Positions 20,954 through 39,021 of a stretch of 64,000 bases of DNA are shown in pieces. The notes beneath the pieces were generated by a model. That model saw nothing but the letters and a program-made list of their open reading frames with translations, was not told the DNA's origin and ran no database searches. Every line of letters begins with the position of its first letter. Position 1 is the first letter of the stretch. A program made the translations under genes and the position numbers. Source of the stretch: an uncultured Elusimicrobia bacterium (GTDB lineage: Bacteria > Elusimicrobiota > Elusimicrobia > 2-01-FULL-59-12); NCBI GenBank assembly GCA_964506645.1, contig CAZDML010000002.1, positions 3,012-67,011 on the forward strand, read 5' to 3'.

Positions 20954-20990
20954 TTGGATCTTGGTGCTTGATGATTGGAATTTGATTTTC

Positions 20991-23900
20991 TTATTGTGCC
21001 AGAGCCGACACATCGCCGTATTTCTCCTTGAGGGACGGGTCCATTTTCACCGCTTTGGAAAATGCGTCAGATGCCTTTTTGGCAAATCCTTGTTTCAAAT
21101 ACATGCGCGCAAGATTCAAGTGAATGCCCGCATCAGCCGGGTCGCGTTGCGCGGCTTCTTTATACAACGATTCCGCTTGTTCATACTCTTTATGCAAGAA
21201 GGCAATGTTTCCAAGATTGTTGTAAGCAGCAGCTGCCGTGGCTGCATCGGAACGTGCTTTGTTTAAGTAGGCACGGGCCTCATCGAAGCGCCGGAACTCC
21301 GCCGCCAAAATGCCCATCTGCAGCTGCGGCTCACCGGCAGCCGGGTTTTTCTCCAGTTCCTGCTTGGCCGCTGCCAGCCGGGTCTGCCAACGCAGATCCA
21401 CAAGCGCTTTCCAATCTTTACCAAAACGTGTTTCTACGGCCTCGTGCGCTGGCATCTTCGTCACTACGGCCGTTTCAGCCAGCGTGGCCGGCTCATAGGT
21501 TTGCCAGGCTTGATGAATGTCGATAACACCGACTTTGCCCGCCGCGCTCAACCGGCGGTACTCGTCTGCCGCATGTTTCCAGGCTTCCATAAAGGAAGAG
21601 CCCAACATCGTGATCTCCAGTGGAATCCAGTAGGTGCCCGCATATGAAACAACCATCGGCTCGGGCAGACCCAGCACCTGCAAATCGGACTCGCCGGTAT
21701 CAAACATCAGGAAGAGATGTCCCGGCACATCAAGCGCACAACTCGGCACACTGAGACTTTCCAGCGCCGAAGCGAACATCGCCACGACATCCGAACAATC
21801 ACCGCTTTTGCGCGACACGGTTTCGCGAGCGAACTGCAGTGAATCGACTGTGGACGAATCCAGCGACACGCGGTCGTAGGGATTATTCGGCCGCGGAACA
21901 TAGGATATTCCGTAAGTACCCAGCCCAGCGAACAGCGCCCAGGCCGTTTTAATCGGTGCCGGCAGCGGACTGACGGCATGCACGTCTTCATAAGGAAGCA
22001 CCAGCGAACGTGCGACATCAATAACCGGCGGGTCGTTCGGTGTCACAAACGCGGCAAATCGTTCCTTGTGATCCCAACGTATGCTGTTGCGCGAGTAGAG
22101 CTTCAACGGAAAGTTCTTCACGACCGTATTTTCCTGGCCGCCCTGATAAAACGTCAACTTCACTTGCGACTGGATCGGCGTGGTTTCCGTCACTTCGAGA
22201 ATTTTATTATTGAAGGTCGCCAGCACGGGCACTTCTTTCTCCTGGCGGAAGCGCAACTCATCGATCGGGGTGTCACTGGGAAAATCCATATAGCCCTGGA
22301 TGGCAAAATCGATTTTTAGTTTTTGCACTGGAGCGGGTCCGTTATTGCGCAATACCACTTTGCCAAACGGTACACGGCTGTAGTATTTGTAGTAGGCTGA
22401 GAAAATATCATCGAACTGTGCCGACACAATTTCCAGGCGCGGGCCACTGGTTGACGGCTTGGCCATGACGCGCACCGGGACCGAAGGCACGCTGGTAGCC
22501 CCCTGCAGTGACTGCGCAGCAACCATATAGGTATAGGTCGTTTCCGGTAGGAGCGAATCATCGGTGAACGTCGTTTCTACGGTTTCTTTTAATTTTTGGG
22601 GTTCGGCCGGAGGCAATGCACGATACACGACATATTTCGGAGGAAAACGCATCTTGGACGCTTCCCAGGCCAATTCCACATAGCCTTCGCCACCCGTCGC
22701 TTTCAACTGGGTCGGCGCGGGAGGGGCCACCACCACACGGAACACCTGGATACGGCCTTCTTCGGCCGTATACAGCCGTCCATCATCGCTCAGCACAAAT
22801 GACCGCGGCTTGTTGAGAAATCCTTTGGACAGACCCGGAGCGCCGAACCCCCCGACAAACACACCCTGCTCGTCATACACCACAATCCGCCCGCGCTCGG
22901 CATCGAGCACATACAAATAGCCTTCCCGATCGACACTCAGGTGCCGCGGCTCTAGCAATGCTTCCCCGCCAATCATTCCCATTTCGTGCAGGAAACGACC
23001 CGAGGCGTTAAACGACACCACTTTGTGATTGTCGACATCAGCAATATAAATTTTGTCGTTGTCCCAAGCCACTGACACAGGTGTTTTTAGCTGGCCGAGT
23101 TCTTTGCCTTTCTGGCCGCCCGCGTAAAGGAAGAGTCCCTGATCATTAAACGCCTGGAAGCGGCTATTGCCGGTATCGGCTACAAAAATCGTACCCTGCT
23201 TGTTCACAAAAAGACCCTGAGGCGCAGAGAGATCTCCTTGGCCGCTCTTAAACATGGAAGCCGATTTACCGATTTCTGCCAGCCGATTGCCCGAGGCATC
23301 GCATTTCAGAATTCGGTTATTACCACGGTCGGCAATGAAATAGTTTCCCGCCGCATCGACCGTCAGCGCGATATCCGAACGTACGCCCAGCTTTGTCTTT
23401 AGGGGAAGGGTATCACTCGGCTTGCCGTCACTATCGAGCAACGTGATCGTTCCCGTTTTGGCCGAGTAAGCCGCCAAACGGCCATCGGACAACAAAGCAA
23501 GGCGGTCGGCATCCACATTCCATAAATTTTTCAGGGCTGCCTGGAAACGGACGGTGGGGGTCGGCGTCACAGCCGGCGGATAATTTTGGCGGGATAAGGC
23601 AAAGACCACGACGCGGTGATTGTCGGTGTCAGCAATATAGAGTTGATCGTTCCAGCACGCCAGCGCATTCAGGCTCTTAAACTGACCCTCACCGCTGCCG
23701 GCACGCCCAAAGGCACCCAGCGTATGTCCGTTCAAATCCATTTCACGAAATTGGCTCGCCCCGCGATCGGCCACATATAGAAGTCCCTGCGCGGACATGG
23801 CTAGCGCACCAGGTTTACTAAATGCTTTCATGCCCGGCTCCGCGCCGGAATAAGAACGGAACAATTGCCCCGCTGTCGACCACTGCTCGATCTGACGCAG

Positions 23901-28759: not shown

Positions 28760-29428
28760 TTATTCGATGGGGGTTGAGAGTTGAACGTCAACGAGGGGAT
28801 GCGTCAGCCAGGACAGCATTTTAGAGAAGACCGCAAAACGGTTTCGGATGGCCGGTGTCGCTCTCACAATCACGGGGGCAGCCGGTTTCGCTGCAGGCGC
28901 AGCGGCTTTACGGGAGAGTTCTTCTCTCCGCAGGCGCTGTGCCAGAAGCGAACAGTCTTCCACGCGGGTGCACACGGCGTTGAGTCGGTGCGTCAGATGG
29001 GTGAGCATGCGGCGGTACAAACGAGCCTGTGACCGCCAGCTCGACGGCAGCTCCGCGGAGGCATGATCCAGCATGGCGGACGCCCGTTCGGTTTGACGCT
29101 GGATACGCTGTACGACCTGCGCTATCGCCAGAACTTCTTTTAAAGGAAGCGCGGTTTTGTCCCATCCACGGATCTGCGTTTCGCACTCGGAGGTACGCTG
29201 GCTAATGAGATCGAGAATCTGTCGAAGGTGATGTAGGGGATTCTGCGGCACTGTGACAGTCACCGTCACAGACGGACGTACCGCCGCACGAGACCGCGCC
29301 ACGGCAAGATCCAGGCGCTCTTCATGAAAAGCCAGACGCTCATAAGCGTCCTGAATGGCCTGCGCTAACCCTACGGGCGGCGTGTGGGCAGCGGCACTGT
29401 GATGGCCGGCTGATTGAGATAATTCCAT
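28760..29428 (-). CDS. hypothetical protein (alpha-helical, no recognisable domain); last gene of the coiled-coil operon
   Basis: ORF only. It is tightly linked downstream of the Pro/Ala-rich protein, overlapping it by 58 nt, so an internal alternative start is possible. Confidence 0.35.
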   Translation of the reverse strand: MELSQSAGHHSAAAHTPPVGLAQAIQDAYERLAFHEERLDLAVARSRAAVRPSVTVTVTVPQNPLHHLRQILDLISQRTSECETQIRGWDKTALPLKEVLAIAQVVQRIQRQTERASAMLDHASAELPSSWRSQARLYRRMLTHLTHRLNAVCTRVEDCSLLAQRLRREELSRKAAAPAAKPAAPVIVRATPAIRNRFAVFSKMLSWLTHPLVDVQLSTPIE

Positions 29429-30174
29429 AGTTTGGTCAGTAAAGAGGTATGCGGTTTCGACCCGTGCGCATCCAGCGGTGGCAGCAGACTGGGTTTAATT
29501 TCAGTCACGGTAAGACGTTCGACCGGAACCGGTACAGGAACCGGGATCGGCACAGAAGCTGCGGCAACCATTGTCGCCGGAGCTTCAACAACAATTGGAG
29601 CAGGCTCTGTTTTACGTTCGGCGATCAGCATTTCCAGCTGTTTGTGGGACTCGGCAATTTCTTTTTGCAGCGAATCGATGACATTTTTCTTCGCTTCCAG
29701 TTCGCCAGACCACTGGGCCTTCTGCGCTTCAAAGTTTTTTTCCAGAGTTTTCAGCTCGTCCTGCCATTCCTGCTTCACCGTCGCCACGGTTTTTTCAAAT
29801 TGAGTAGCCTGGAGATCTTTCATGGCCTGCTGGCTCTGGAGGAGTCCCTGCAGCTGCTGCTTGAGCTGCTGTGCGCTGATGACGTGGCCCTTTTTCAAAT
29901 CCATTTCCAGGGCTCGCAGCTGCGGATCGGCCGCGATCTGCCAGGAGACCGTCGGTGCCGAAGCCGGTGCGGGTGAAGGAGCCGATGCCACGACAGGAAC
30001 AGCCAGCGGTGGAACCGCAGGAGCGGGTGCCGGGACTCGGAGAACGGGTGCGGGGTCTGCTTTTTGCGGTGCAGGAGCAACCGCATCTGGCGAAGACACA
30101 ATGGTCAGCGTCGGGATCGAAGGAACTCCCTGCGATCCTTTGCTTTCGCTGGGCGGATGCTGGATAAATTTCAC
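29371..30174 (-). CDS. Pro/Ala-rich coiled-coil protein (267 aa)
   Basis: N-terminal APAPQKADPAPVLRVPAPAPAVPPLAVPVVASAPSPAPASAP, a central Q/E/K coiled coil (..KQQLQGLLQSQQAMKDLQ..) and a C-terminal PIPVPVPVPVE. Its ATG overlaps the stop of the upstream gene (ATGA). Confidence 0.45.
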   Translation of the reverse strand: MKFIQHPPSESKGSQGVPSIPTLTIVSSPDAVAPAPQKADPAPVLRVPAPAPAVPPLAVPVVASAPSPAPASAPTVSWQIAADPQLRALEMDLKKGHVISAQQLKQQLQGLLQSQQAMKDLQATQFEKTVATVKQEWQDELKTLEKNFEAQKAQWSGELEAKKNVIDSLQKEIAESHKQLEMLIAERKTEPAPIVVEAPATMVAAASVPIPVPVPVPVERLTVTEIKPSLLPPLDAHGSKPHTSLLTKLWNYLNQPAITVPLPTRRP

Positions 30175-32228
30175 GCCGCTTTTCCTTGGGTCGGACGAGT
30201 TTTGAGCGATTCCAGCGCGGATTTCATGTCCTGCATGGACTGTTTAATGTCGCCTAACGCTTTTTGTGCCACGGGTGTTGCCGCCGCTGGCTGAGTCGCT
30301 TTCTTTTCCAAATCCAATTTTACACTATTCCATTCCGATTCTTTCTTGGTCCATTCCGTTTCCTTTTTCGCATGCTCTTGCTGCAGCTTATTGATTTCAT
30401 TCTGCACATTTGTGAAAGCATCTTTGAGAGCACTTTGGGCCGATTTCCACTGCTCTTCCTTGGCCGACCATTCCGCCAGCGTGTGCTGCGCTTCTTTGTA
30501 ATCGGATTGGCTGCGATTCAGATCTTTTTCAAGCATGTCCTGGCGCGCTTTGAGTGCTTCCATTTCTTTCTGTGCGTCATTCATATCCTGCTGATGGGCC
30601 AGAATCGCTTCTTTCTGTAGCTGCAGTTCCTGTTGGCGAGCGTCGAGCACCGTACGCAACGAGCCTAGCTCCAATTGCATGGCCTGGCGGGATTCCTCGG
30701 CTTCTTTTTCTTTCATTTGCACTTCAGCAATACGAAGCAACAGTTCCTTGGACTGTTTTTCATACTGATCGCGCTCTTCCACCAATCGCGACTCTGCCTG
30801 CTGGACATGCTGCTGAGCAAGATTGAGCTGTTGTTTAAATTCAGCAATGGCAGCTGTTTTTTCATGCTCGATTTTTGTGCGTTCCTTTTCAAGACGCTGC
30901 TGGTATATCACGGGCATCTCATGGAGCACCTCTTCGCGCGCTTGGAGGCGAATCGACTCTGCCTGTTTTTTCCATTCACTGCGCTCCACCTCAAACCCAC
31001 GTTTCATATTCGCGATTTCAATGCGTAGCTGTGCAATATCTTCTTCGCGCTGCGTTACGCCGTATCGGGCCGTGTCGCGTTCGGAGCGGAGTTGCGACAG
31101 CATCCCTTCCCAGTACTGTGCCCGTTCCTGATCACGGCGGACAAATTCCCGTTTAATATCTTCTTCGCGCGATACGACCTGCGATTCCAGGCGCTGGCGA
31201 ATCTCAAGATGATCCTGCTCAAGTTGGTCGAGTTTGGTCTGCCAACGCAAGCGCTCCTGCTGTTGCTGGACGTCCGTCTGCTGAACCTGTGACTGTAAAA
31301 GTGCGATCTGGGCTTTGAGCTGCCCTTCGTCGCGCAAGCGTTTTTCCAGTTCGGCCTGCATTTTCTGCTCATAGGTCTGCCGGTCCTGCAGGGCTGTCTC
31401 TTTGATGCGCTGAAGCATTTCATCTTTCTGGTCCAGCGCATCTTGCAATTTTTCATTGTCGAGCTCGGCCTGACGTTTCAGCTGGCTAATCACTTCATCG
31501 CGCTCACGCGTGGAGGTCATCCACTGATTTTTTTCTTCGTGATAGCGACGTTCGATCTCGCGCATCTGGCGCGTTAAATTCTGTTCGACTTCGCGCTCCA
31601 TCTTTTCACGTTCTTTAAGCTGATTCTTCAGCGCGATCATCCAGGTTTCCCGCTCATCGGCAATCCGGCGTTCCAGATCTTTAATCTGGCCTTCCGCCTT
31701 GCCGCGCGACTGCTGCAGTTCCTGTTCGTATTTTTCCCGGCGCAATTTTTCCTGCATGTCACGCAGCTGCTGTTCAACGCGCACGGAAAGATTTTCATCC
31801 TCCTTGGCCTTGAGCGTCTGGATCATAAGCTTCTCGTGTTCTTCCTTTAACTGGCGTTCCAGGTCCTGGACCTGTTTTTCCATGGCTTTCTTGGATTCCA
31901 TCTGTTCCTGAAAACGGCGTTCCATTTCCTGCATTCGGGCTTCCAGGAGATTGGTCATAGGGGCGGCACCGGGCGTCGGGGGCATTCCCATAGGCGTCAT
32001 CGGACGCGGCGGCATATTGGGCATGGACGGCTGTGGCACAGCGGGCGCAGGCGTTGGAGCGGGCGCGGCGGCCTTGGGCATCGCAGGGGGCATGACACTG
32101 CCCATCGCTGCAGGCGGTGGGGGCGGCGGCGGGGGTACCGGCCGGCGCGCGGGCGGCGGCGGGGGTACAGGTTTCGAGGCTCCGGGTCCCGGCGGGGGCG
32201 GCGGTGTCATTCGCGATTCTTCAGCCAT
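30171..32228 (-). CDS. polyproline (FH1-like) N-terminus + ~580-aa continuous coiled-coil protein
   Basis: MAEESRMTPPPPPGPGASKPVPPPPPARRPVPPPPPPPPAAMG.. followed by uninterrupted E/K/Q/R/L heptad-rich sequence to the C-terminus. An AAAGGAG Shine-Dalgarno sequence lies 8 nt upstream. No signal peptide or TM. Confidence 0.6.
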   Translation of the reverse strand: MAEESRMTPPPPPGPGASKPVPPPPPARRPVPPPPPPPPAAMGSVMPPAMPKAAAPAPTPAPAVPQPSMPNMPPRPMTPMGMPPTPGAAPMTNLLEARMQEMERRFQEQMESKKAMEKQVQDLERQLKEEHEKLMIQTLKAKEDENLSVRVEQQLRDMQEKLRREKYEQELQQSRGKAEGQIKDLERRIADERETWMIALKNQLKEREKMEREVEQNLTRQMREIERRYHEEKNQWMTSTRERDEVISQLKRQAELDNEKLQDALDQKDEMLQRIKETALQDRQTYEQKMQAELEKRLRDEGQLKAQIALLQSQVQQTDVQQQQERLRWQTKLDQLEQDHLEIRQRLESQVVSREEDIKREFVRRDQERAQYWEGMLSQLRSERDTARYGVTQREEDIAQLRIEIANMKRGFEVERSEWKKQAESIRLQAREEVLHEMPVIYQQRLEKERTKIEHEKTAAIAEFKQQLNLAQQHVQQAESRLVEERDQYEKQSKELLLRIAEVQMKEKEAEESRQAMQLELGSLRTVLDARQQELQLQKEAILAHQQDMNDAQKEMEALKARQDMLEKDLNRSQSDYKEAQHTLAEWSAKEEQWKSAQSALKDAFTNVQNEINKLQQEHAKKETEWTKKESEWNSVKLDLEKKATQPAAATPVAQKALGDIKQSMQDMKSALESLKTRPTQGKAA

Positions 32229-32249
32229 GGCAAGCTCCTTTCAAACGGT

Positions 32250-35200
32250 TTACGACGCTTTCGGTTTTTTCTTCAAATCGAGTGACGCGCGCAGGCGGCT
32301 GGCCCACGTGCTGAGCTGCGTATTGGACGGATCCAGTGACAGCGCCCGATCCACGGCCTCGGCGGCACGCTGCTCATCGCCCTGGGCATGGTAGGCCAGA
32401 GCCAGGTACTGATACGCTGCACCCCAATGAGCATTCTTCTCCAAACATTCCTGAAACGACCGGATAGCATCGGGCCACTGCTGCGCTTGATAAAAATGGA
32501 CACCGGCCTCAAACGACGACCAGGCCGCCGCGCCCAGGCGCTCGGTTTTGGCACTGGTCGGCGAGAGCACGCCGTCTTTAAGTCCTTCGACCTGCGTGCG
32601 CAGGTTGTCCACCAGCTTTCGAGTGCTGTCGCGCAGCGCCGTCATTTCCTTGTCCTGTTTTTCAATCTGGGTCATGAGCTGCGTAAAGAGGGTTTCACGT
32701 TCTTTAATCAGCGTGTCAAAGTGTTTCTTCATCTCGGCCTGCTGGTCCTGAATCTGTTTGATCTGTGTTTCGAGCTGGCGACGCTGAGCTTCAAGTGCGT
32801 GCTGGGCGGATGCGTCGCGAGCGGCTGCATTTTTGGAAGACTGCATATCGCGCTCCTGCATCGCAGCCAGCTGTGTCTGCACCGTTTTTAGCTGAGTCGC
32901 CACGCGGGCCTGCTCGGTCTTATGGTGTTGGCGCACGCGGTTTAATTCTTCCGTCGACTGCTTTTTCAGCTTCTCCAGTTCTTTGCGACGTTTCTCCGCT
33001 TCTTCCTGCAGTCGACGGTCGCGCCATTCCAGGCGGTTTTTTGCCACCCGCAAATCTTCTTCCTTAATATGCAGTTGTGATTCCCAGGTCGATTGCTGCT
33101 GTTGGGTGACCTCTTTCAAATGGGCAAGCTGAACACGCAGCGGTTCAAGGTCTGTCTCGATCTGCCCCTTCAAGCGCTCCTGCTGGGTTTCCATCTCAGA
33201 TTCTTTGAGGCTGAGTTCCATGTGCAGCTTGGTCATGGACTCTTCCATGCGGCGCACTTCTTGTTCCGCATGTTTTTGCAGCTGCTGAATATCTTCTTCG
33301 AGCTGTCTCTTTTCCTGATCCAGTGCCTGCTTTTCATTTTGCCACTGTTCCAGAGACGAGCCCCACTGCAACTCTTCGCTGGATTCGCGTTTCTGAATTT
33401 CGGCGACCGCACGACTCATCTCCGCTTCTTTGTCAGCCACCTGACGCTGATAATGGGCTTGGAGTTCCTCCAGCTCCTTCTCACGTTTTCGGATCTGCGA
33501 CAAGAGAGCCTGGCGGTCCTGGTCATGTGCCGTTTCCAGCGATTTGATTTCGCTCTGCAGCCGTACGTCCCACTGCGCTACTTCCTGCCGCAGCTCGCTG
33601 ATTTCATTGGCTTTTTCTTTGCGCAGCGCTTCCCAATGATCCTGCGCCTGCGCAAGATGGCTTTTGAGCTGGTCAATCTGAGTGCGCAGCGCCGTATTGG
33701 TGGATCTCCAGGAATTGACCTTTTGATTAAATTCTTCGCCCAGCACTTTCAAGCGGTCTTTGGAGGAGGTCAGGAGATCTTCCAACTCCTGTTCCTTGGA
33801 CGCCAACTGCGATTCAAAAGATTTGCGGTCTTTTTCTGTCTGCGTTTGCAACGCGGTCAGCGTTTCCTGGACCTTGCGTTTTTCTGTGTCAAAGTGGGTG
33901 CTCTTTTCCACAATCTGCTGATCACGCTGCATCTTGGCGCGGTTGAGTTCGTTTTCCAGCTGACGGATTTCCTTTTCACGGTTGGCCAGCTGTCGTTCCG
34001 ACACTTCCTTATGATCTTTGAGCTTCCATTCCAATTCGTCTTTGGCTTTTTCCAGCTGGAAGCGTTCTTCAGCAAATTGTTTGGCCAAACGGTCGAGTTC
34101 GCCTTCCCGCTCAGCTTCTTTAGCCAGCAAATTGGAGCGCAGCGTCGTGATTTCGGAATCGCGAGCGGCACACTTTTTCGCCCATTCTTCTTTGAGCTGA
34201 ACCAGCTGTTCTTTGATCTTTTCTTCTTTGTCATGGCCGCGGCGCATGAGCGTGGACAACGCACGGTCGTAGCGGTCAAGGGTCTGCTGGTGTTTGGCCT
34301 GATCTTTGACGAGCTGCTGCTGAATATGGGCAATGCGTTCCTCGCGAACGCGGATTTCCTGAGGGAAGCCGGCCTGCGACTGTTTGAGTTCTCCCTCAAT
34401 CTGCTGCAGCATGTCTTGCAACGTGCGGGCTTTGACGGTGGCCGAATGGATCAGCTCGCGCTTCTTGGCTTCGTGCGCCACGGCCTGCTGGCGCACCTGT
34501 TCTTCGAGCTGTTCAACCAAAAGGGTTTTTTCGGCGTGTTGTACTTTGCCGGAATTGACCAGGGCTTCCTGCTCAGAGCGCAGGGCATCGAGCTTGGCTT
34601 TGAATTCGGCACGCGCCTCACGAAACTGGGTATCCCGCGTCTCGCGTTCGGTCTTGGCTTTCTGCGTGATCTGCTGCAGCTGTTCTTTTAGTGCTTTCTG
34701 TTCGTTTTCCAGATCAAAAAGCTGTTTGTCGTGTGTCAATTTTTCATCTTTCAATGCTTCCTGCAGCTGCTGGTAGCGATCTTGGAGCGGCTGCACCTGC
34801 TGGTCAAGGATTTTTTGTTCTTGTTCCAGTTTCTGGGCATGCAGCATTTCCTGCTTCTGAATTTCGGCTTCCAGCGCCAGCTTCTCTTTTTCTTTCTTGT
34901 CGACTTCCTGACGCCAATAAATCTGGATGCGTTCTTTGTCCCCTTGAGCCGCGGCCAGCTGCTTTTCCATCGAAGCCCGCTCGGCGTCAATCATCTGCTC
35001 CTGCTCATGGGCAGCGGCAACCAACTCTTTGTAGCGGGTTTCCAAGTTCTGGCGCAGAGCACCCAACTGATTGGCCTTTGACTGCACTGACGCTTTGTAC
35101 TGTTCACGTGCCTGAGCAATTTCTTTTTCTAAATTGAGGATTATGCTCTGTGCTTTGGCTGTTTCTCTCTGACAGGCGTCCCGTTTTTCCTGCATGGCCT

Positions 35201-37217
35201 GGTCAAGCAGTTCCGGCAGGTGGGCCAAGCGAGCGGCCATATCTGCACGCTCTTTTTCTTTGGCTTCCATCGTCTTCTGGAACTTAACGTCTTCTTCACG
35301 GCGCACAGCCATAAAAGCTTCAAGCGCTGCACGGCGTTCTTCAAATTTCTTGCGCAACCGCTCTTCCTGCTCCGCATTGCGCTTGCGCAGCATTTCTTCT
35401 TTGGCTTTGAAATCTTTTTCCAGCGTTTCAATGGCGTTACGGTGGTCAATCTCGTAGCTTTGGGACGATTCCTGAAGCTTGGTGATTTCGCGTTCAAGCG
35501 CACGCACGCGAGAGCGGGTCGCTTCCACCTGGCGCGAGAGCGCCGTTTCTTCCGTAGTGTATTTTCCTTTCAGCGCGGCTTCCTGAGTCGCAAGCGTGGC
35601 GGCGAGTTCTTTGATCGCCTGCTCTTTAAGTCTAATCTCTCCCTGGAAGCGCAGGCGCTGCTCCTGCAGTCCTTGTTCGGCTTCGCCTTTCTGACGTTCC
35701 AGCTCGACCGTTTCGGCCTGTAAAACACGTGCAGCATCTTCGTTCTGCTGCGTCAAATCCTGCAAGCGTTTTTGAGCACTGGCTTCCAGTGTCGCTTGTT
35801 CCTCGCGCAGCTCAACCGAGCGCGCTTCAAATTGTTTCAGCTTCTCCTTCTGCTGATCTTCCAACGCCTGGAGCTGAACCGCGAGCACTCGCTTTTGCTC
35901 ATTGATAGCACCCATGCGCTGCCCGTACTCTGAATCGAGTTTGCGTAGAGCCGTGCGGATGGATTCCTGAGTCTGGGTGAGTTCTGCTTCTTTATTTTCC
36001 AGGGAGATTTTCCAGCTCTGCTGTTCCTCTGCCAACTGACGCTGCACGGACTGCACCTGCGCTACGGCAGAGGCCACGGTCTCTTCTAAAATTTTCTGTG
36101 CCTGTTCCGCGCGGGTCTTGGCATCCGTTTCCACAAGCACTGATTTCATCTTAAGCTGCTGAATTTGTTCCTCGCGTGACTGCAAGAGCTGCTGCCAGGA
36201 TTGGTTTTCCTTTTCAAAATGGGCTTTGAGCGCGGTGAGTTTTTCCAACGCGCGGTCGTGTCGGTGCGTAATTTCTTGCAGACGCTTTTCCTGTTCGAGC
36301 TGCCAGGCGGTCTGACGTTCCTGCAGCGCCGAGTGCAGCCGAGTGCGTTCTTCTTCCTTCGACTTCATCGCTTCTTCCCAGGCTTTGCGGCGTTCGGCCC
36401 ACTGTTTCTCCAGCGTCTGCAAACGGGTTCGCCAGAGTTCTTCAGCCGCCTTCTTCTGCGCGTCCTGATCCTGCATTTCTTTCTGCAGGCCGGTCTCGCG
36501 GCGTGCCAGTTCCTGCTTGAGTGCCATCAGTTCTTCATCGCGGGCTTGGATCACTTCCTGCCATTTCTGGCGTTCCTGAAGGAGCCGGGCTTCCTGCACC
36601 TGCACCGATTCCTCGGCCTGGCGCAGCGCCTGCACACGGGATTCTTCTTCTTTGTCCGTGAGATTCTTTTTTTCGATGTGTTCGGCTTCCACCTGACGCG
36701 CGGCCTGTTCAAGCTTCTTTTCGCGGTCGGCAAGCTGGCGCGTCCAGGCCGCAGAATCTTCGTTCAGCTTGCGTTCGAGGAATTTAATTTCCCGCTGCGC
36801 ATCCTGCTGGAGAAACTGCAGGGACTGCTGATTGGATTCGCGCTTTGTCTTAAACGTGATATCGAGTTTTTCCAGCTGCGAGCGCGTCGCCTGGATTTCT
36901 TTATCCAAGTTCTGCAGGCGCACCTGCGCTTCGGCGCGTTCTTTGAGGATCAGGTCTTCGAGGTTCGGCTTATCGGATTTGGGAGTGGACCCGTCTTGGG
37001 CCGAACCGGCTTCCGGTGTGGCGGGCGTTTCTGCAGGAGGAGGTCCGGCCGGTTTTTTGACCGACCGTACTGTTTTGGGGGCTGTTGGTTTCGTGGAAAT
37101 GGGAGCTGACGGAACAGACGCCTCGGACGCAGGAGTGTCCTGAGCCTTGTCTTTCGAAGGCGCAGGATCTGCAGGTTTCTTCCCCCACAGGTTTCGGAAA
37201 CGGTCGGACATGGACAT
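32250..37217 (-). CDS. giant (~1656 aa) coiled-coil protein with a C-terminal TPR domain
   Basis: About 1550 aa of E/K/Q/R/L-rich predicted coiled coil, then TPR-like ..AHWGAAYQYLALAYHAQGDEQRAAEAVDRALSLDPSN... The start is MSMSDRFRNLW (ATG 37217-37215) with a GGGAG Shine-Dalgarno sequence. The track's upstream MHVKK start would lie inside the predicted promoter. Confidence 0.65.
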   Translation of the reverse strand: MSMSDRFRNLWGKKPADPAPSKDKAQDTPASEASVPSAPISTKPTAPKTVRSVKKPAGPPPAETPATPEAGSAQDGSTPKSDKPNLEDLILKERAEAQVRLQNLDKEIQATRSQLEKLDITFKTKRESNQQSLQFLQQDAQREIKFLERKLNEDSAAWTRQLADREKKLEQAARQVEAEHIEKKNLTDKEEESRVQALRQAEESVQVQEARLLQERQKWQEVIQARDEELMALKQELARRETGLQKEMQDQDAQKKAAEELWRTRLQTLEKQWAERRKAWEEAMKSKEEERTRLHSALQERQTAWQLEQEKRLQEITHRHDRALEKLTALKAHFEKENQSWQQLLQSREEQIQQLKMKSVLVETDAKTRAEQAQKILEETVASAVAQVQSVQRQLAEEQQSWKISLENKEAELTQTQESIRTALRKLDSEYGQRMGAINEQKRVLAVQLQALEDQQKEKLKQFEARSVELREEQATLEASAQKRLQDLTQQNEDAARVLQAETVELERQKGEAEQGLQEQRLRFQGEIRLKEQAIKELAATLATQEAALKGKYTTEETALSRQVEATRSRVRALEREITKLQESSQSYEIDHRNAIETLEKDFKAKEEMLRKRNAEQEERLRKKFEERRAALEAFMAVRREEDVKFQKTMEAKEKERADMAARLAHLPELLDQAMQEKRDACQRETAKAQSIILNLEKEIAQAREQYKASVQSKANQLGALRQNLETRYKELVAAAHEQEQMIDAERASMEKQLAAAQGDKERIQIYWRQEVDKKEKEKLALEAEIQKQEMLHAQKLEQEQKILDQQVQPLQDRYQQLQEALKDEKLTHDKQLFDLENEQKALKEQLQQITQKAKTERETRDTQFREARAEFKAKLDALRSEQEALVNSGKVQHAEKTLLVEQLEEQVRQQAVAHEAKKRELIHSATVKARTLQDMLQQIEGELKQSQAGFPQEIRVREERIAHIQQQLVKDQAKHQQTLDRYDRALSTLMRRGHDKEEKIKEQLVQLKEEWAKKCAARDSEITTLRSNLLAKEAEREGELDRLAKQFAEERFQLEKAKDELEWKLKDHKEVSERQLANREKEIRQLENELNRAKMQRDQQIVEKSTHFDTEKRKVQETLTALQTQTEKDRKSFESQLASKEQELEDLLTSSKDRLKVLGEEFNQKVNSWRSTNTALRTQIDQLKSHLAQAQDHWEALRKEKANEISELRQEVAQWDVRLQSEIKSLETAHDQDRQALLSQIRKREKELEELQAHYQRQVADKEAEMSRAVAEIQKRESSEELQWGSSLEQWQNEKQALDQEKRQLEEDIQQLQKHAEQEVRRMEESMTKLHMELSLKESEMETQQERLKGQIETDLEPLRVQLAHLKEVTQQQQSTWESQLHIKEEDLRVAKNRLEWRDRRLQEEAEKRRKELEKLKKQSTEELNRVRQHHKTEQARVATQLKTVQTQLAAMQERDMQSSKNAAARDASAQHALEAQRRQLETQIKQIQDQQAEMKKHFDTLIKERETLFTQLMTQIEKQDKEMTALRDSTRKLVDNLRTQVEGLKDGVLSPTSAKTERLGAAAWSSFEAGVHFYQAQQWPDAIRSFQECLEKNAHWGAAYQYLALAYHAQGDEQRAAEAVDRALSLDPSNTQLSTWASRLRASLDLKKKPKAS

Positions 37218-37237
37218 AGGTTTATTCTCCCGCAGTG

Positions 37238-37265
37238 AGTTTAGTCCGTATTGACAGCATTTCAA
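37238..37265 (-). promoter_or_regulatory. candidate sigma70-type promoter of the coiled-coil operon: -35 TTGAAA (37265-37260), 16-nt spacer, -10 TAAACT (37243-37238)
   Basis: Read on the minus strand inside the 37218-37404 gap. It is followed by GGGAGAATAAACCT-ATG. Further upstream are an AT-rich block and the CTCAG/CTGAG motif array. Confidence 0.35.
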
Positions 37266-37367
37266 GGCTTTTTTTACATGCAACGAAATGGGGAGAAATG
37301 GCCCAAAACAGCTCAGAATGCAGAATTCAATGCTCAGAGCGATAAAAAGACTACCTATATATAAGAT

Positions 37368-37395
37368 TTCTGGGTTCTGAGCCCTGAGTACTGAG
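37368..37395. repeat. 28-nt tandem heptamer array (TTCTGGG TTCTGAG CCCTGAG TACTGAG), intergenic; preceded at 37312-37338 by two copies of GCTCAGA in opposite orientation
   Basis: Seen directly in the sequence. It matches 24 of 28 positions of the array at 14747-14774. Confidence 0.6.
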
Positions 37396-37404
37396 GTGCG
37401 CCTG

Positions 37405-39021
37405 TTATTCCGGGCGCAACTGCTTCATGAACTCGCTGATTTCTTTGTCGTTGGGGTCGATTTCCAGCACGCGGCTCCAGAGCTTGCGAGCGCGGGTATG
37501 GTCATCGAGCAGGAAGAAGGCAGAGCCCATGATCTTCATGGACGTCACATCGTTCGGGTTTAGATCCAGGATGTCCTGGCATTTCTTGATGGCGACATCG
37601 TACTTGCCTTCCAGAATCGCCTGGCGAGCATCGAAGATCTTCTGATCGACCGGGCTGAAGAGTTCCGGACCCTTCGGCCGTTCGGTCTTGTCAAGATTGG
37701 TGTCAGCTTCCATCTTGTTGAGGAGCGACAGGAGCTTCTCGTTGCGCGGATCTTTGAAGTACGCCTGACGCAAAGCAGCAATCGCGCTCTTGGTGTCGTC
37801 GTTGACGTAAGAGAGCACGCCCTTGCGCACCATCGCCGCCGATTCCTCATTACCCATGGCTGACGGTACGTTCGCCACCACTTTCTGGAATTTCTCAACG
37901 AGCACCTGGACTTTCTTGTTTGACGGATCCACGTCCAAGGACGCCTGCAGCTGTTCCTGCGCTGCCAGGAAGTTCCCGGCTTCCATTGCCTTGTAGGCTT
38001 TTTGGATGAGCGCATGGACGTTTTCTTCGCGGCGTTCCAGGACGGAACGGCCAAATTTAAAGGAGACGGAGATGCGGCTTGAGGTTCCCAAGGTGTGCAG
38101 GCCCAAGGCATAGTCAAAGGTCAAGCTCTTTATGGAATAGCCAAAACCCACATCGGTTTCGCGCAGGCCTTCACCCAAGTCGTATTGAATCCCCACACGG
38201 CCTTTGAATTTCTTTGTAAAGCCAAATTCCCCACCCAAATGGAGTCCGGTGTTGGCCGCGAGGTTTTTATCGATATCTGTCGAAAGCAAGAGGCGGCGTT
38301 TGAAGAACTGGTCGGAAAAACCGAAGCGGAAAACCAGAGGCAGTGTGTCGGACGTATCGCCCGAGGTCTTGGCGTAGACGTCCCGGATGGTCAGACCAAA
38401 GCGACGCAGACCATCGCGCGTATCGAGCAGAGCCCCCAGGTCAGCTGCCAGAGAAGAATCGGACGAGGTATCCACAGCACGAGTGATCTGGCGAATCGAG
38501 GTTCCAATTGCCACATGGTCGACCACCTTGCGGCCGTAGGAGAAGCTGTTGGCCGATTCGCTCACCTGGAAGCCACCGCCCTTTTCTACGCTCGTATAGG
38601 TCTGCGTGTTTGGGTCGATTTTGGCGGTCACACGTTCAAAGCCGCCGCTGGAGAGTTGTGTCATGCTGACGCCCCAGGCGCTGCCTCCCTTCTTGGACGG
38701 ATGCACATAGGAGTAGAAATTGTATTTGGTTTCACCGTAGAGGGTGGCCTGCAGGAGGGTCAATTCTTTGCGGGTGAGCTGGGACATGCCCGCCGGGTTC
38801 CAGTAGGTGGCGCTGGCATCATCCGCAACGCTGACGAAGGCACCGCCCATGGCCAGGCTGCGGGCGCCGGCGCCGTAGGACAGGAATTCCGTCACCTGGC
38901 CGCCGGTGGCTTCAGTGTGGCCAATCGACGGAACGAGTGCGATGAACAAAATTAAAACGCACGCTCTCTGTAGAGAGAACATGCGCCCAAAAAACCCAGC
39001 AAAGGTCTTCGTTAAGTTCAT
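37405..39021 (-). CDS. FadL/PorV-family-like outer-membrane beta-barrel (N-terminal ~330 aa) fused to C-terminal TPR repeats
   Basis: Signal peptide (..CVLILFIALVPSIGHTEA). The N-terminal motif ..FLSYGAGARSLAMGGAFVSVADDASATYWNPAGMS.. matches the FadL/TodX/PorV family plug-hatch region (FadL: ..GLGRAYSGEGAIADDA..NPA..). Alternating beta-strand patterns follow to about residue 330. The C-terminal 200 aa are TPR-like (..AYKAMEAGNFLAAQEQLQASLDVDPSN.., ..ILEGKYDVAIKKCQDILDLNPND..). No Shine-Dalgarno-like sequence. Confidence 0.5.
   Translation of the reverse strand: MNLTKTFAGFFGRMFSLQRACVLILFIALVPSIGHTEATGGQVTEFLSYGAGARSLAMGGAFVSVADDASATYWNPAGMSQLTRKELTLLQATLYGETKYNFYSYVHPSKKGGSAWGVSMTQLSSGGFERVTAKIDPNTQTYTSVEKGGGFQVSESANSFSYGRKVVDHVAIGTSIRQITRAVDTSSDSSLAADLGALLDTRDGLRRFGLTIRDVYAKTSGDTSDTLPLVFRFGFSDQFFKRRLLLSTDIDKNLAANTGLHLGGEFGFTKKFKGRVGIQYDLGEGLRETDVGFGYSIKSLTFDYALGLHTLGTSSRISVSFKFGRSVLERREENVHALIQKAYKAMEAGNFLAAQEQLQASLDVDPSNKKVQVLVEKFQKVVANVPSAMGNEESAAMVRKGVLSYVNDDTKSAIAALRQAYFKDPRNEKLLSLLNKMEADTNLDKTERPKGPELFSPVDQKIFDARQAILEGKYDVAIKKCQDILDLNPNDVTSMKIMGSAFFLLDDHTRARKLWSRVLEIDPNDKEISEFMKQLRPE

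What the first reader, a model, noticed from the sequence alone, without database searches (positions are those of the whole stretch)
30171..32228. FH1-like polyproline N-terminus on a bacterial coiled-coil protein
Residues 8-45 read PPPPPGPGASKPVPPPPPARRPVPPPPPPPPAAMG, followed by further proline-rich sequence through about residue 110. Uninterrupted poly-Pro runs of 8 or more are the profilin/SH3/WW-binding signature of eukaryotic actin regulators (formin FH1, WASP, VASP) and of bacterial effectors that mimic them. They are unusual in free-living bacterial proteins.

Together with the 267-aa Pro/Ala-rich neighbour and the giant adhesin, this raises the possibility of a host-interaction or epibiotic function. 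The run could alternatively be a rigid polyproline-II spacer.
Basis: partly seen in the sequence, partly recalled or inferred. Interest (0 to 1): 0.6.

Follow-up and report, generated by a model that had tools for sequence, protein, structure and literature searches.

The report
Proline-motif coiled-coil protein of Elusimicrobia
The poly-proline start of this bacterial coiled-coil protein is real and conserved, but it is most likely a docking peptide on a scaffold protein of an uncharacterised, c-di-GMP-controlled cell-envelope machine found across the phylum Elusimicrobiota, not a mimic of eukaryotic actin regulators.

Summary
Observation confirmed. ORF 30171-32228(-) encodes 685 aa with P5, P5 and P8 blocks at residues 9-39. 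Residues 1-95 are 41% Pro and the rest 0.7%. This is not genome-wide bias.

The protein belongs to an unannotated family found almost only in Elusimicrobiota (84 non-redundant loci). All members share one design: a Pro-rich N-terminal module, a conserved helical head, a variable coiled-coil rod (~75 nm here) and a short conserved C-terminal peptide. They have no signal peptide or TM segment.

What is conserved is an ordered peptide (ancestral KPxΦPPLPPG, repeated 2-3 times), not poly-Pro as such. The pure PPPPP...KPVPPPPP form is specific to the window's clade. The P8 run follows an 18-nt duplication.

The gene sits in a conserved array: giant surface protein, c-di-GMP riboswitch, PorV/PorQ-family barrel with TPR, a protein ending in a cytoplasmic 3-TPR domain, then this family. 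In most lineages the TPR protein is a mini FliF-FliG rotor-like fusion, and flbD-motA-motB follow. The window's clade lacks those genes at this locus.

Best reading: a multivalent docking peptide on a cytoplasmic scaffold, probably binding the upstream TPR domain (inferred, not shown). The FH1/host-actin reading is unsupported. Interest is moderate to high because of the machine it points to.

The parts
30171..32228 (-). Gene for the 685-aa family member ('FAM'): N-terminal proline-motif module, conserved helical head, segmented coiled-coil rod, short C-terminal helix ending in -GKAA
   Evidence: ORF. 33 homologues. 84 non-redundant loci. AF2 model. No Pfam or NCBIfam family.
32100..32228 (-). 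Proline-motif module, residues 1-43: cap MAEESRMT, P5 (32190-32204), linker GPGASKPV, P5 (32151-32165), ARRPV, P8 (32112-32135)
   Evidence: Sequence. The clade-wide pattern M[AS][DE]x2-4 P5-7 x3-9 [KR][PGS][VT]P5-6 is present in 17 of 17 aligned members. AF2 shows no regular structure, pLDDT 44-58.
32121..32168 (-). Two copies of the 18-nt unit GTACCCCCGCCGCCGCCC (32151-32168 and 32121-32138), 30 nt apart. This is a local duplication of the PVPPPPP unit, giving a third Pro block that most relatives lack.
   Evidence: DNA read. Relatives have two blocks; only the window and L012 have three.
31920..32099 (-). Low-complexity P/A/M/G-rich linker, residues 44-103. Probably a flexible or PPII tether between the motif module and the helical head.
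   Evidence: pLDDT 38-45 and no secondary structure. Only 26% identity within the clade, with many gaps.
31329..31919 (-). Conserved helical 'head', residues 104-300. It contains the family signature (...LKEEHEK...RVEQQLR.MQEKLRREK...ERETWM.ALKNQLKERE...).
   Evidence: 62% identity within the clade against 29% for the rod. Invariant columns E130...W196...E215 across 34 sequences. A single helix with pLDDT about 90. No PDB relative beyond generic coiled coils.
30309..31286 (-). Variable coiled-coil rod: helices 315-466 and 481-640, with breaks at 301-314 and 467-480.
   Evidence: AF2 secondary structure. Only myosin, tropomyosin, SMC and crescentin-type matches. Length varies from 650 to 1200 aa across the family.
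30174..30269 (-). C-terminal helix (residues 654-675, AQKALGDIKQSMQDMKSALESL) and tail ...TRPTQGKAA. This is a degenerate form of the family's conserved C-terminal peptide.
   Evidence: AF2. C-termini of 73 family members: LLxWLRPxKK...KAA, FWxWLNKPΦΦE, GRFLDTPIID..KKK, RLKWAΦKGKK.
32250..37283 (-). Upstream gene: about 1655-1677-aa coiled-coil protein ending in a 3-TPR domain (residues ~1590-1660). The start is probably at Met23 (MSMSDRFRNLWGKK). The stop lies 21 nt before the FAM start. The TPR domain is the candidate partner of the proline motif.
   Evidence: TPR_2 and TPR_16. The TPR is homologous to the TPR of FliG-like proteins. TPR-coding DNA lies directly upstream of FAM in 68 of 71 loci. 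The N-terminal SDRFR..KK motif is conserved in orthologues.
37405..39021 (-). PorV/PorQ-family outer-membrane beta-barrel with signal peptide and C-terminal TPR repeats. First gene after the riboswitch.
   Evidence: NF033709 at 107.9 bits, cutoff 90. UPF0164, Toluene_X and TPR in Pfam. Signal peptide read. Conserved position in relatives.
39027..39112 (-). c-di-GMP-I(-GGC) riboswitch aptamer in front of the barrel / coiled-coil / FAM gene string.
   Evidence: RF03167 at 59.9 bits, gathering score 59. The same element sits at the same position in 6 of 7 relatives tested. No strong minus-strand terminator between it and FAM.
39337..63991 (-). Giant T/S/G/N-rich surface protein: 7596-aa ORF 39337..62127, plus ORF 61604..63991 carrying the same repeat unit. 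The gene continues through a frameshift and off the window. The C-terminus resembles a T9SS type-A sorting domain.
   Evidence: No Pfam domain. Composition and termini. TIGR04183 at 19.6 bits against a cutoff of 23, plus C-terminal matches to T9SS cargo. Shared repeat. Giant genes of 5313-16125 aa sit at the same position in relatives.
28760..30174 (-). Two small coiled-coil genes overlapping the FAM stop: 267 aa at 29371..30174 and 222 aa at 28760..29428. They end in ...LLTKLWNYLNQPAITVPL and ...FSKMLSWLTHPLVDVQL, the same kind of C-terminal peptide that FAM carries in other clades.
   Evidence: ORFs. Orthologues end in KLWxYLNEPAΦ and WLMHPΦVD. FAM C-termini.

Best explanation
The ORF encodes a cytoplasmic, roughly 75-nm, segmented coiled-coil protein. 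It belongs to an unannotated family found almost only in Elusimicrobiota.

Its proline-rich start is the family's hallmark. It is a terminal short-linear-motif module, held on a flexible linker of about 60 residues in front of a strongly conserved helical head. The ancestral form is K-P-x-Φ-P-P-L-P-P-G, repeated 2-3 times. In the window's clade it became PPPPP...KPVPPPPP, and here one unit was duplicated, giving the P8 run.

I propose that the module is a multivalent docking peptide that fastens the rod to a partner in a conserved envelope machine. The most likely partner is the small cytoplasmic 3-TPR domain at the C-terminus of the protein encoded immediately upstream. The rod, its C-terminal peptide and the small coiled-coil proteins downstream would then build a cytoplasmic scaffold under the machine.

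The machine's genes form a conserved array: a giant surface protein, a c-di-GMP riboswitch and a PorV/PorQ-like outer-membrane barrel. In most lineages the array also holds a mini FliF-FliG-TPR rotor-like protein and FlbD-MotA-MotB stators.

Shown: the motif and its conservation, the architecture, the cytoplasmic character, the synteny, the riboswitch and the domain identities.
Inferred: docking as the function, TPR as the partner, and the scaffold role.

The window's own clade has no rotor or stator genes at this locus. Its link to a MotAB-type motor rests on orthology and shared synteny.
For: **1. Motif-level conservation, not just composition**
- N-termini are 25-42% Pro in about 70 of 73 species loci, against about 1% in the rest of the protein.
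- PP[LPVIMFA]PP occurs in 60 of 73 N-termini, at 19.3 per 1000 aa. The density is 0.00 in the rest of FAM and 0.04 in 873 neighbouring ORFs.
- PPLP occurs in 51 of 73 N-termini, against 9.2 (maximum 17) in shuffles.
- [KR]x0-1PxΦPPΦPP occurs in 26 of 73, against 0.3 in shuffles.
- All 17 aligned clade members keep the two-block pattern.

**2. The module is terminal**
It is unstructured in AF2.

**3. Cytoplasmic character**
There is no signal peptide or TM segment. Maximum KD19 is 0.49, and only 1 of 79 members exceeds 1.6.

**4. Synteny (unless stated)**
- TPR-coding DNA lies directly upstream in 68 of 71 loci.
- A FliG-like gene lies upstream in 61 of 71 loci.
- FlbD, MotA and MotB lie downstream in 44, 42 and 42 of 58 loci.
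- The c-di-GMP riboswitch is present in the window and in 6 of 7 relatives tested.

**5. The TPR domain is cytoplasmic and conserved**
The FliG-like protein is a signal peptide, an RBM-like periplasmic domain, a TM helix, FliG_MC and a 3-TPR domain with pLDDT above 90 and many invariant Tyr. The window's 1677-aa protein has no TM segment and a homologous TPR.

**6. Natural co-variation**
Two species loci (L084, L086) have lost the barrel, FliG-like, TPR and MotAB genes at the FAM locus. Their FAM N-termini have only 14-15% Pro and no PPxPP.

**7. Precedent**
The 3-TPR type III secretion chaperones SycD, IpgC and PcrH bind extended Pro-containing N-terminal hexapeptides in their concave groove (PMC3443056).

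**8. Other terminal peptides in the cluster**
The other coiled-coil proteins of the cluster also carry conserved terminal peptides. This fits assembly through short motifs.
Against: - No binding was tested.
- The family motif does not match the T3SS-chaperone consensus [PV]xLxxP above chance: 35 of 73 loci against 25.7 in shuffles.
- One locus (L085) keeps a Pro-rich N-terminus without a detectable upstream TPR.
- P0001 has the same MAEE start but no poly-Pro block.
- The co-loss case is a single lineage.
- Given 30-40% Pro, runs of 5 or more Pro are themselves no more frequent than shuffles predict. The exact length of the window's P8 run may therefore have no meaning of its own.
- The window clade lacks FliG-like and MotAB genes at this locus. 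Its machine may differ from that of the majority.
Confidence: 0.5

Rival explanations
1. FH1-like mimic: the poly-Pro tract recruits profilin or SH3/WW/EVH1 proteins of a eukaryotic host or prey, and the protein acts as an effector in a host-associated or epibiotic lifestyle.
For: The window sequence formally matches SH3 class I ([RK]xxPxxP, 3 times) and class II (2 times). It has one P8 run long enough for profilin-type binding. A giant surface protein is encoded nearby.
Against: - There is no secretion signal or TM segment.
- There is no actin-related or any other domain.
- Relatives come from groundwater, sediment, fen, lake and soil MAGs across the phylum.
- Across the family, SH3, EVH1 and P>=6 patterns are at shuffle level.
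- The ancestral motif is PPLPPG, and P8 is unique to this sequence.
- The gene lies in an operon-like string with structural envelope and motor genes under a c-di-GMP riboswitch.
Confidence: 0.04
2. Passive physical element: the Pro-rich N-terminus is only a stiff PPII rod or entropic bristle. It would keep coiled-coil rods apart or set a distance, with no specific partner.
For: The tract is unstructured with low pLDDT and very Pro-rich. The stretch at residues 44-103 is poorly conserved in sequence and length, as expected for a spacer. Run lengths are explained by composition.
Against: - The first ~30 residues carry an ordered, position-specific motif far above shuffle expectation.
- That motif is kept over phylum-level divergence, while the rod drifts to 22-29% identity.
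- The motif is at the extreme terminus, so it connects nothing.
- It degenerates where the neighbouring machine genes are lost.
Confidence: 0.2
3. Translational throttle: consecutive prolines near the start stall ribosomes and make synthesis depend on EF-P. This would tune the dose of this protein relative to its operon partners.
For: PPP and longer runs are established EF-P-dependent stall sites (general knowledge, not tested here). The runs lie within the first 40 codons. The window clade lengthened them, partly through an 18-nt duplication.
Against: Most of the family has PPLPPG-type diprolines, which are weak stallers, yet conserves the flanking Lys, hydrophobic and Gly positions. That points to selection at the protein level. 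This could be a secondary effect in the window clade rather than the primary function.
Confidence: 0.08
4. Neutral low-complexity expansion: GC-rich CCN repeats grew by slippage and are tolerated at a disordered terminus, with no function.
For: There is an exact 18-nt direct repeat. The number of blocks varies (2-3) and the adjacent linker is indel-rich. P0001 lacks the blocks.
Against: Mixed Pro codons (CCG/CCC/CCA/CCT) are used rather than a pure repeat. The two-block pattern is present in 17 of 17 clade members at 37-50% overall identity. The motif is conserved phylum-wide.
Confidence: 0.08

Closest known systems
Formin FH1 / WASP / VASP proline-rich regions, and bacterial mimics such as ActA
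   Same: Several short proline blocks sit in a disordered region next to a helical or oligomerising part. The ancestral family motif contains PPLP, as FH1 and WW class II ligands do.
   Different: There is no FH2, WH2 or EVH2 domain or any actin-binding domain, and no secretion signal. The hosts are free-living bacteria. EVH1, SH3 and long poly-Pro patterns are not enriched beyond composition.
TPR-peptide docking in type III secretion class II chaperones (SycD-YopD, IpgC-IpaB, PcrH-PopD)
   Same: [quoted passage not shown] YopD additionally uses a C-terminal amphipathic helix (PMC3443056). Here a 3-TPR domain is encoded directly before a protein with an N-terminal Pro motif and a conserved C-terminal peptide or helix.
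   Different: The motif differs: KPxΦPPLPPG or PPPPP rather than P/VxLxxP, which is not enriched. There is no T3SS. The TPR is fused to a rotor-like or coiled-coil protein rather than being a free chaperone. Binding is untested.
Myxococcus Agl-Glt gliding machinery: the AglZ coiled-coil scaffold, TPR protein GltI, the AglRQS MotAB-like motor and outer-membrane barrels with an adhesin (from my own knowledge)
   Same: A cytoplasmic long coiled-coil protein and TPR proteins are coupled to a MotA/B-family motor, outer-membrane barrels and a surface adhesin.
   Different: There is no sequence homology to AglZ and no receiver domain. The stators here are flagellar-type MotA/PomA (E=1e-48 to 6YSF) with FlbD and a FliF-FliG-like protein. 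Motility has not been observed.
Bacteroidota T9SS/gliding: PorV/PorQ barrels, CTD-bearing giant adhesin SprB, GldLM motor
   Same: There is a PorV/PorQ-family barrel (NF033709 above cutoff). The giant surface protein has a T9SS-type-A-like C-terminal domain. A CHU_C-bearing protein is present in one relative's locus.
   Different: The CTD match is below threshold. No GldLM/PorLM or other T9SS core genes are seen at the locus. The motor genes are MotAB/FlbD with a FliG-like protein.
Flagellar rotor and stator (FliF-FliG with MotAB)
   Same: In most relatives FAM lies between a protein with a FliF-RBM-like periplasmic domain plus FliG_M/FliG_C, and flbD-motA-motB.
   Different: There is no FliG_N, and the torque-helix charges are only partly kept. 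The protein has an extra C-terminal TPR. No export apparatus, rod, hook or filament genes are at the locus, and such Elusimicrobiota are reported to lack flagellar structural genes (bioRxiv 10.1101/2022.07.08.499144). FAM has no flagellar counterpart.
TonB / TolA energy transducers
   Same: Proline-rich and long helical segments are combined in proteins encoded next to MotA/ExbB-family motors.
   Different: There is no N-terminal TM anchor and no TonB_C or TolA C-terminal domain. The protein is cytoplasmic rather than periplasm-spanning.
Bacterial coiled-coil-rich cytoskeletal proteins (crescentin, FilP/Scy, Ccrp)
   Same: A long segmented coiled-coil rod with short non-helical ends. Crescentin appears among the weak PDB matches.
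   Different: Similarity is only compositional. The conserved head and the terminal motifs are family-specific.

Membership tests
Formin FH1-type / actin-regulator proline-rich module | Multiple poly-Pro tracts in a disordered region | tested here: met
   P5, P5 and P8 at residues 9-39. AF2 shows the region unstructured.
Formin FH1-type / actin-regulator proline-rich module | An adjacent actin-binding or nucleating domain (FH2, WH2, EVH2) | tested here: not met
   No Pfam or NCBIfam domain. The rest of the protein is coiled coil.
Formin FH1-type / actin-regulator proline-rich module | Recognition motifs (profilin P>=6, EVH1 FPPPP, SH3 PxxP) conserved beyond composition | tested here: not met
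   Family-wide frequencies equal those of shuffles: P>=6 in 5 of 73 loci against 3.2; EVH1 in 5 against 4.2; SH3 class I in 33 against 34.5.
Formin FH1-type / actin-regulator proline-rich module | Access to a eukaryotic cytoplasm (secreted effector, host association) | tested here: not met
   No signal peptide or TM segment. Relatives come from free-living environmental MAGs. Secretion by an unknown route is not excluded.
TonB/TolA-type transducer | N-terminal TM anchor that pairs with the ExbB/TolQ/MotA-family motor | tested here: not met
   Maximum KD19 is 0.49, and there is no hydrophobic segment in 78 of 79 members.
TonB/TolA-type transducer | C-terminal TonB_C or TolA domain | tested here: not met
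   No domain hit.
PorV/PorQ family (neighbouring 538-aa gene) | Score above the curated cutoff of NF033709 | tested here: met
   107.9 bits against a cutoff of 90. The specific PorV, PorQ and PorV2 equivalog models are far below their cutoffs.
T9SS cargo (neighbouring giant protein) | C-terminal type-A sorting domain (TIGR04183 / PF18962) | tested here: inconclusive
   TIGR04183 at 19.6 bits against a cutoff of 23. Por_Secre_tail at E=0.18. C-terminal alignment to T9SS cargo, PorU and PorZ tails.
Flagellar FliG (neighbour of the family in most relatives, not in the window) | FliG_M and FliG_C domains | tested here: met
   PF14841 and PF01706. 1LKV at E=5e-31. Foldseek at E=4e-11.
Flagellar FliG (neighbour of the family in most relatives, not in the window) | FliG_N domain and full-length equivalog score | tested here: not met
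   TIGR00207 at 115 bits against a cutoff of 226.7, covering model positions 124-337 only.
Flagellar FliG (neighbour of the family in most relatives, not in the window) | Charged torque-helix residues (E. coli R281, D288, D289) | tested here: inconclusive
   The alignment to T. maritima gives G, E and I at these positions. The mapping to E. coli numbering is from memory.
Flagellar-type MotA stator (in relatives) | Full-length similarity to solved MotA/PomA | tested here: met
   6YSF and 8UCS at E=1.4e-48, PomA at 1e-46. MotB_plug and OmpA in the partner.
c-di-GMP-I riboswitch (upstream element) | Rfam gathering score | tested here: met
   RF03167 at 59.9 bits against 59 in the window. RF01051 or RF03167 in 6 of 7 relatives, 53.7-70 bits.
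TPR-peptide docking pair (proposed mechanism) | Physical binding of the N-terminal proline motif to the upstream TPR domain | not testable with these tools
There is only gene-order evidence (68 of 71 loci) and one co-loss event.

The most novel reading that the evidence does not exclude
The family is the cytoplasmic arm or track of a previously undescribed, non-flagellar rotary machine of Elusimicrobiota. In this reading, a ring of mini FliF-FliG-TPR rotor proteins is driven by FlbD-MotAB stators. It is coupled through TPR-proline-motif docking to long coiled-coil rods inside the cell, and through a PorV/PorQ-like barrel to a giant surface adhesin outside. The whole system is switched by a c-di-GMP riboswitch. 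It would be a new kind of surface motility or adhesin-handling apparatus, of which the window's clade holds a rotor-less derivative.
Probability: 0.25. Interest if true: 0.85.

Novelty: new variant of a known kind. Interest (0 to 1): 0.6.

Why it matters
Free-living Elusimicrobiota lack flagella, yet they keep motAB, flbD and fliG homologues. The one paper found that mentions these genes calls their role unclear (bioRxiv 10.1101/2022.07.08.499144).

This finding places those genes in a fixed array: a giant surface protein, a c-di-GMP riboswitch, a PorV-like barrel, a FliF-FliG-TPR fusion and this proline-motif coiled-coil family.

It also supplies a concrete handle that can be tested with a synthetic peptide, namely the N-terminal motif and its candidate TPR reader.

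If the docking model holds, it would be a clear bacterial example of eukaryote-style assembly by short proline motifs. It would also be an entry point to a possibly new motor-driven surface machine.

If it fails, the tract is still a good natural case for studying EF-P-dependent N-terminal poly-Pro.

Tried and rejected
- **Exact-protein look-up of the window ORF:** not on record.
- **Pfam and NCBIfam on FAM, the 1677-aa, 267-aa, 222-aa and giant proteins:** only TPR or noise. PF27695, listed for distant homologues, is a weak 'CEP131_C' match, which is coiled-coil noise.
- **Profile search against PDB sequences:** generic coiled coils only.
- **hhalign of the family against the N-terminal part of the 1677-aa protein:** probability 96% over 82 gapped columns. 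I treat this as possible paralogy or coiled-coil bias, not as evidence.
- **BLASTP of the 267-aa against the 222-aa protein:** no similarity.
- **Literature searches:** Elusimicrobium+motB, c-di-GMP riboswitch+PorV, and a review of MotAB evolution yielded nothing on this cluster.
- **First attempt to scan the giant protein whole:** failed on length.
- **My crude ORF caller:** it miscalled antisense ORFs in high-GC loci, so I replaced the counts with tblastn on DNA.
- **Region-wise identity for residues 1-27:** distorted by the extra Pro block in the window, so I did not use it.

Full report
**1. The observation**

ORF 30171..32228 on the minus strand encodes 685 aa. It has an ATG start and a Shine-Dalgarno AAAGGAG 7 nt upstream. 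It begins 21 nt after the stop of the preceding gene.

The N-terminus is MAEESRMT-PPPPP-GPGASKPV-PPPPP-ARRPV-PPPPPPPP-AAMG. The Pro blocks are at residues 9-13, 22-26 and 32-39. A P/A/M/G-rich tract follows, up to about residue 91. Residues 1-95 are 41% Pro, and the rest of the protein is 0.7% Pro.

This is not a genome-wide habit.
- The window's 35 ORFs (5.4% Pro) should hold about 0.01 runs of 5 or more Pro.
- Only this ORF has several such runs. One other ORF (20120..21013) has a single P5.

The DNA uses mixed Pro codons. It also contains the 18-nt unit GTACCCCCGCCGCCGCCC twice, 30 nt apart. The third block is therefore a local duplication of a PVPPPPP unit.

**2. Architecture**

No Pfam or NCBIfam family matches. 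A profile search of PDB sequences gives only generic coiled coils: myosin rod, tropomyosin, SMC, crescentin.

AF2 with the family alignment gave mean pLDDT 73.6.
- Residues 1-103 have no regular structure (pLDDT 38-58).
- The helices are 104-300 (pLDDT about 90), 315-466, 481-640 and 654-675.
- Fully extended, the rod would be about 75 nm. This is my arithmetic at 0.15 nm per residue.

No hydrophobic segment exists. Maximum KD19 is 0.49, and only 1 of 79 family members exceeds 1.6. The protein is therefore cytoplasmic unless it is exported by an unknown route.

**3. The family**

A protein search found 33 homologues. Every hit that a source names is from Elusimicrobia MAGs, and the rest are unnamed metagenome proteins.

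A scan of GTDB species genomes found 165 relatives. The best 80 are almost all titled Elusimicrobia, Elusimicrobiota or Endomicrobiia, and they come from groundwater, sediment, fen, lake and soil. After removing duplicates I hold 84 loci.

Conservation is uneven.
- Within the window's clade the head (residues 96-260) is 62% identical to the window protein.
- The rod is 29% identical, the low-complexity linker 26% and the C-terminus 38%.
- Fifteen head columns are invariant across 34 sequences.

**4. The N-terminal module is conserved as a motif**

In 73 species loci the region before the head is 50-110 aa long. It is 25-42% Pro in about 70 of them.

The commonest form is M(D/E)DKDKK..KPGMPPLPPGMxKPxLPPLPPGGKPSLPP. 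All 17 aligned members of the window's clade instead have M[AS][DE]x2-4, P5-7, x3-9, [KR][PGS][VT]P5-6.

Some homologues seemed to lack the motif (P0006, P0017). Re-translating their loci shows that their gene calls were truncated and that they do carry it (L017 and L003). P0001 truly lacks it.

The motif statistics are as follows.

| Pattern | FAM N-termini with it | Control |
|---|---|---|
| PP[LPVIMFA]PP | 60 of 73 (19.3 per 1000 aa) | 0.00 per 1000 aa in the rest of FAM; 0.04 in 873 neighbouring ORFs |
| PPLP | 51 of 73 | 9.2 in shuffles, maximum 17 |
| [KR]x0-1PxΦPPΦPP | 26 of 73 | 0.3 in shuffles |
| PPG[Φ] | 37 of 73 | 11.4 in shuffles |

By contrast, SH3 class I and II, EVH1, P>=5 and P>=6 patterns occur at shuffle level.

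The conserved thing is therefore an ordered peptide. Uninterrupted poly-Pro is a derived feature of the window's clade, and P8 is unique to this sequence.

**5. Other terminal peptides**

FAM C-termini are also conserved. The forms are LLxWLRPxKK...KAA in the window clade (degenerate in the window itself), FWxWLNKPΦΦE, GRFLDTPIID..KKK, and RLKWAΦKGKK.

The two small coiled-coil genes that overlap the FAM stop are the 267-aa and 222-aa ORFs. Together with their orthologues, they end in KLWxYLNEPAΦ and WLMHPΦVD.

The upstream proteins of about 1600 aa start with SDRFRxxΦxKK and end in -KAS or -AA.

Several coiled-coil proteins of the cluster thus carry short conserved end-peptides. That pattern is typical of motif-mediated assembly.

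**6. Neighbourhood**

The gene order in the window is:
1. a giant ORF (39337..62127, continuing upstream);
2. a c-di-GMP riboswitch (39027..39112);
3. a PorV/PorQ-family barrel with TPR (37405..39021; NF033709 at 107.9 bits, cutoff 90);
4. a 1677-aa coiled-coil protein ending in a 3-TPR domain;
5. FAM;
6. the 267-aa ORF;
7. the 222-aa ORF;
8. PHP, DAGK and further housekeeping genes.

All of these are on one strand, with overlaps or gaps of at most 121 nt. There is no strong terminator between the riboswitch and FAM.

Relatives share this order. Counting by tblastn on the DNA:
- a TPR domain is encoded directly upstream of FAM in 68 of 71 loci;
- a FliG-like gene lies upstream in 61 of 71 loci;
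- FlbD, MotA and MotB follow FAM in 44, 42 and 42 of 58 loci.

The riboswitch sits before the barrel gene in 6 of 7 relatives tested. Giant genes of 5313 to 16125 aa precede it.

The window's immediate clade lacks the FliG-like gene and flbD-motAB at the locus. This clade comprises WIN, L001, L003, L009, L011, L012 and L017. I could not check whether these genes lie elsewhere in those genomes.

**7. The usual partner protein**

The FliG-like protein is highly conserved. There are 338 clusters at E<=1e-10, with 57-77% identity among the top 120, and every named hit is from Elusimicrobia.

Sequence comparisons place its core in the FliG family.
- It aligns to T. maritima FliG_MC at E=5e-31.
- It scores below the FliG equivalog cutoff and lacks FliG_N.

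AF2 gives the following layout:
- a signal peptide;
- a periplasmic alpha-beta-beta-alpha-beta unit with a disordered insertion;
- a TM helix;
- an acidic linker;
- FliG_M and FliG_C;
- a confident 3-TPR domain.

Foldseek matches FliG_MC (E=4e-11). It matches the periplasmic part to FliF rings: 9a67 at E=5e-5, and 7bk0 and 7d84 at probability 1.0. The protein is therefore a natural mini FliF-FliG-TPR fusion.

The cluster's MotA is flagellar-type (6YSF at E=1.4e-48). The torque-helix charges of the FliG-like protein are only partly kept (the residue mapping is from memory).

A preprint reports that free-living Elusimicrobiota lack flagellar structural genes but keep motAB, flbD and fliG. It calls their role unclear (bioRxiv 10.1101/2022.07.08.499144). 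I found no paper describing the array or this family.

**8. The surface side**

The giant protein has no Pfam domain. It is T/S/G/N/V-rich with 0.1% Cys. Its last 199 residues resemble a T9SS type-A sorting domain but score below threshold (TIGR04183 at 19.6 against 23).

ORF 61604..63991 carries the same repeat unit. The gene therefore continues upstream through a frameshift and off the window. One relative's locus has a CHU_C-bearing protein.

**9. Mechanism**

Shown:
- a cytoplasmic coiled-coil protein with a conserved, terminal, ordered proline motif;
- constant adjacency to a gene that ends in a cytoplasmic 3-TPR domain;
- membership of a riboswitch-headed array with envelope and, usually, motor genes.

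Inferred: the motif is a multivalent docking peptide, and the TPR domain is its reader. The arguments for this are:
- the gene order (68 of 71 loci);
- the terminal position, which rules out a spacer role for the blocks themselves;
- the precedent of 3-TPR T3SS chaperones that bind extended Pro-containing N-terminal peptides (PMC3443056);
- one natural co-loss.

The co-loss concerns L084 and L086. There FAM lies between a Peptidase_S41 gene and ribosomal protein genes, with no barrel, FliG-like, TPR or MotAB genes. Its N-terminus has only 14-15% Pro and no PPxPP.

The arguments against are:
- no binding test was possible;
- the motif is not the T3SS consensus;
- L085 keeps a Pro-rich end without a detectable TPR upstream;
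- the co-loss is a single event.

The stretch at residues 44-103 probably does act as a flexible tether. EF-P dependence of the P8 run is a likely side effect in this clade. That rests on general knowledge and was not tested.

**10. Verdict**

The FH1/host-mimic reading is not supported.

The tract is the clade-specific form of a phylum-wide docking-type motif on an uncharacterised scaffold protein. Its real interest is that it marks a conserved, unexplained array. That array contains a giant adhesin, a PorV-like barrel, a FliF-FliG-TPR fusion and MotAB, under c-di-GMP riboswitch control.

I rate it a new variant of a known kind, namely motor-associated coiled-coil scaffolds assembled through short motifs. 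Interest is 0.6. I give 0.25 probability to the bolder reading that it belongs to a new non-flagellar rotary surface machine.

Noticed in passing
window 39027-39112 (-); L001 3293-3376; L003 3058-3144; L004 5832-5910; L013 1063-1153; L024 5957-6035; L087 5855-5933: A c-di-GMP-I / c-di-GMP-I-GGC riboswitch sits in front of the PorV/PorQ-like barrel gene in the window and in 6 of 7 relatives tested. It was not found in L009. In the window a 15-bp hairpin plus U-run (38988-38955) lies just inside the annotated start of the barrel ORF. It could be the expression platform.
   Followed up: yes
L004 7872-9818 (P0130); L024 7803-9755; 61 of 71 related loci: A mini FliF(RBM-like)-TM-FliG_M-FliG_C-TPR fusion protein is very conserved in Elusimicrobiota. 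It is usually followed by FAM and then flbD-motA-motB and a lipoprotein of about 250 aa, in genomes reported to lack flagella. It looks like a rotor-like protein of an undescribed machine.
   Followed up: yes
window 39337-62127 (-) and 61604-63991 (-): A giant surface protein with no Pfam domain and a sub-threshold T9SS type-A-like C-terminal domain. The 795-aa ORF at the window edge shares its repeat unit. The gene therefore continues through a frameshift near 62.0 kb and off the window. Relatives reach 14833-16125 aa.
   Followed up: partly
window 37405-39021 (-): An outer-membrane barrel of the PorV/PorQ family (above the NCBIfam cutoff) fused to C-terminal TPR repeats. The architecture is conserved in nearly all related loci.
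   Followed up: partly
window 32250-37283 (-): The 1677-aa coiled-coil protein probably starts at Met23 (MSMSDRFRNLWGKK). This amphipathic, basic N-terminal peptide is conserved in orthologues. The protein occupies the place of the FliG-like gene in the window clade and shares its C-terminal TPR domain. hhalign hints at distant paralogy with the FAM head.
   Followed up: partly
window 29371-30174 (-) and 28760-29428 (-); orthologues in L001, L003, L009, L011, L012, L017: Small coiled-coil proteins downstream of FAM end in the conserved peptides KLWxYLNEPAΦ and WLMHPΦVD. These resemble the C-terminal peptide of FAM in other clades (FWxWLNKPΦΦE). They appear to be a shared docking or membrane-targeting motif.
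   Followed up: partly
C-termini of FAM (window 30174-30182), the 1677-aa protein (window 32253-32261) and ~585-aa coiled-coil proteins in L015, L018, L025, L026, L066: Many coiled-coil proteins of the cluster end in -KAA, -KAS or -DAA. This could be an ssrA-like AA-COOH degron or a ligand for a TPR carboxylate clamp. It is unexplained.
   Followed up: no
L084 9923-12262; L086 9920-12226: In two related species the family gene lies between a Peptidase_S41/PDZ gene and ribosomal protein genes (L3, L4, L2). The barrel, FliG-like, TPR and MotAB genes are absent there. The N-terminus has lost the proline motif (14-15% Pro).
   Followed up: yes
window 16128-17273 (-): A GAF + HD_5 (HD-GYP-type) protein, a candidate c-di-GMP phosphodiesterase, lies in the same window as the c-di-GMP riboswitch.
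   Followed up: no
window 20120-21013 (-): This is the only other ORF in the window with a P5 run. It is a membrane-anchored or secreted protein with a PPPPP linker before a beta-rich domain, next to the 1189-aa NHL/TPR protein. It has no family match.
   Followed up: partly
L013 13313-17872: In lineages that have both the FliG-like gene and the ~1600-aa TPR protein, FAM is followed by large secreted proteins instead of MotAB. One carries a CHU_C (T9SS type-B) C-terminal domain, and another carries a LysM domain.
   Followed up: no
window 30000-38000: AT skew is strong (about -0.3 on the plus strand) across the coiled-coil genes. This reflects their A-rich, Glu/Lys/Gln-rich coding strand.
   Followed up: no
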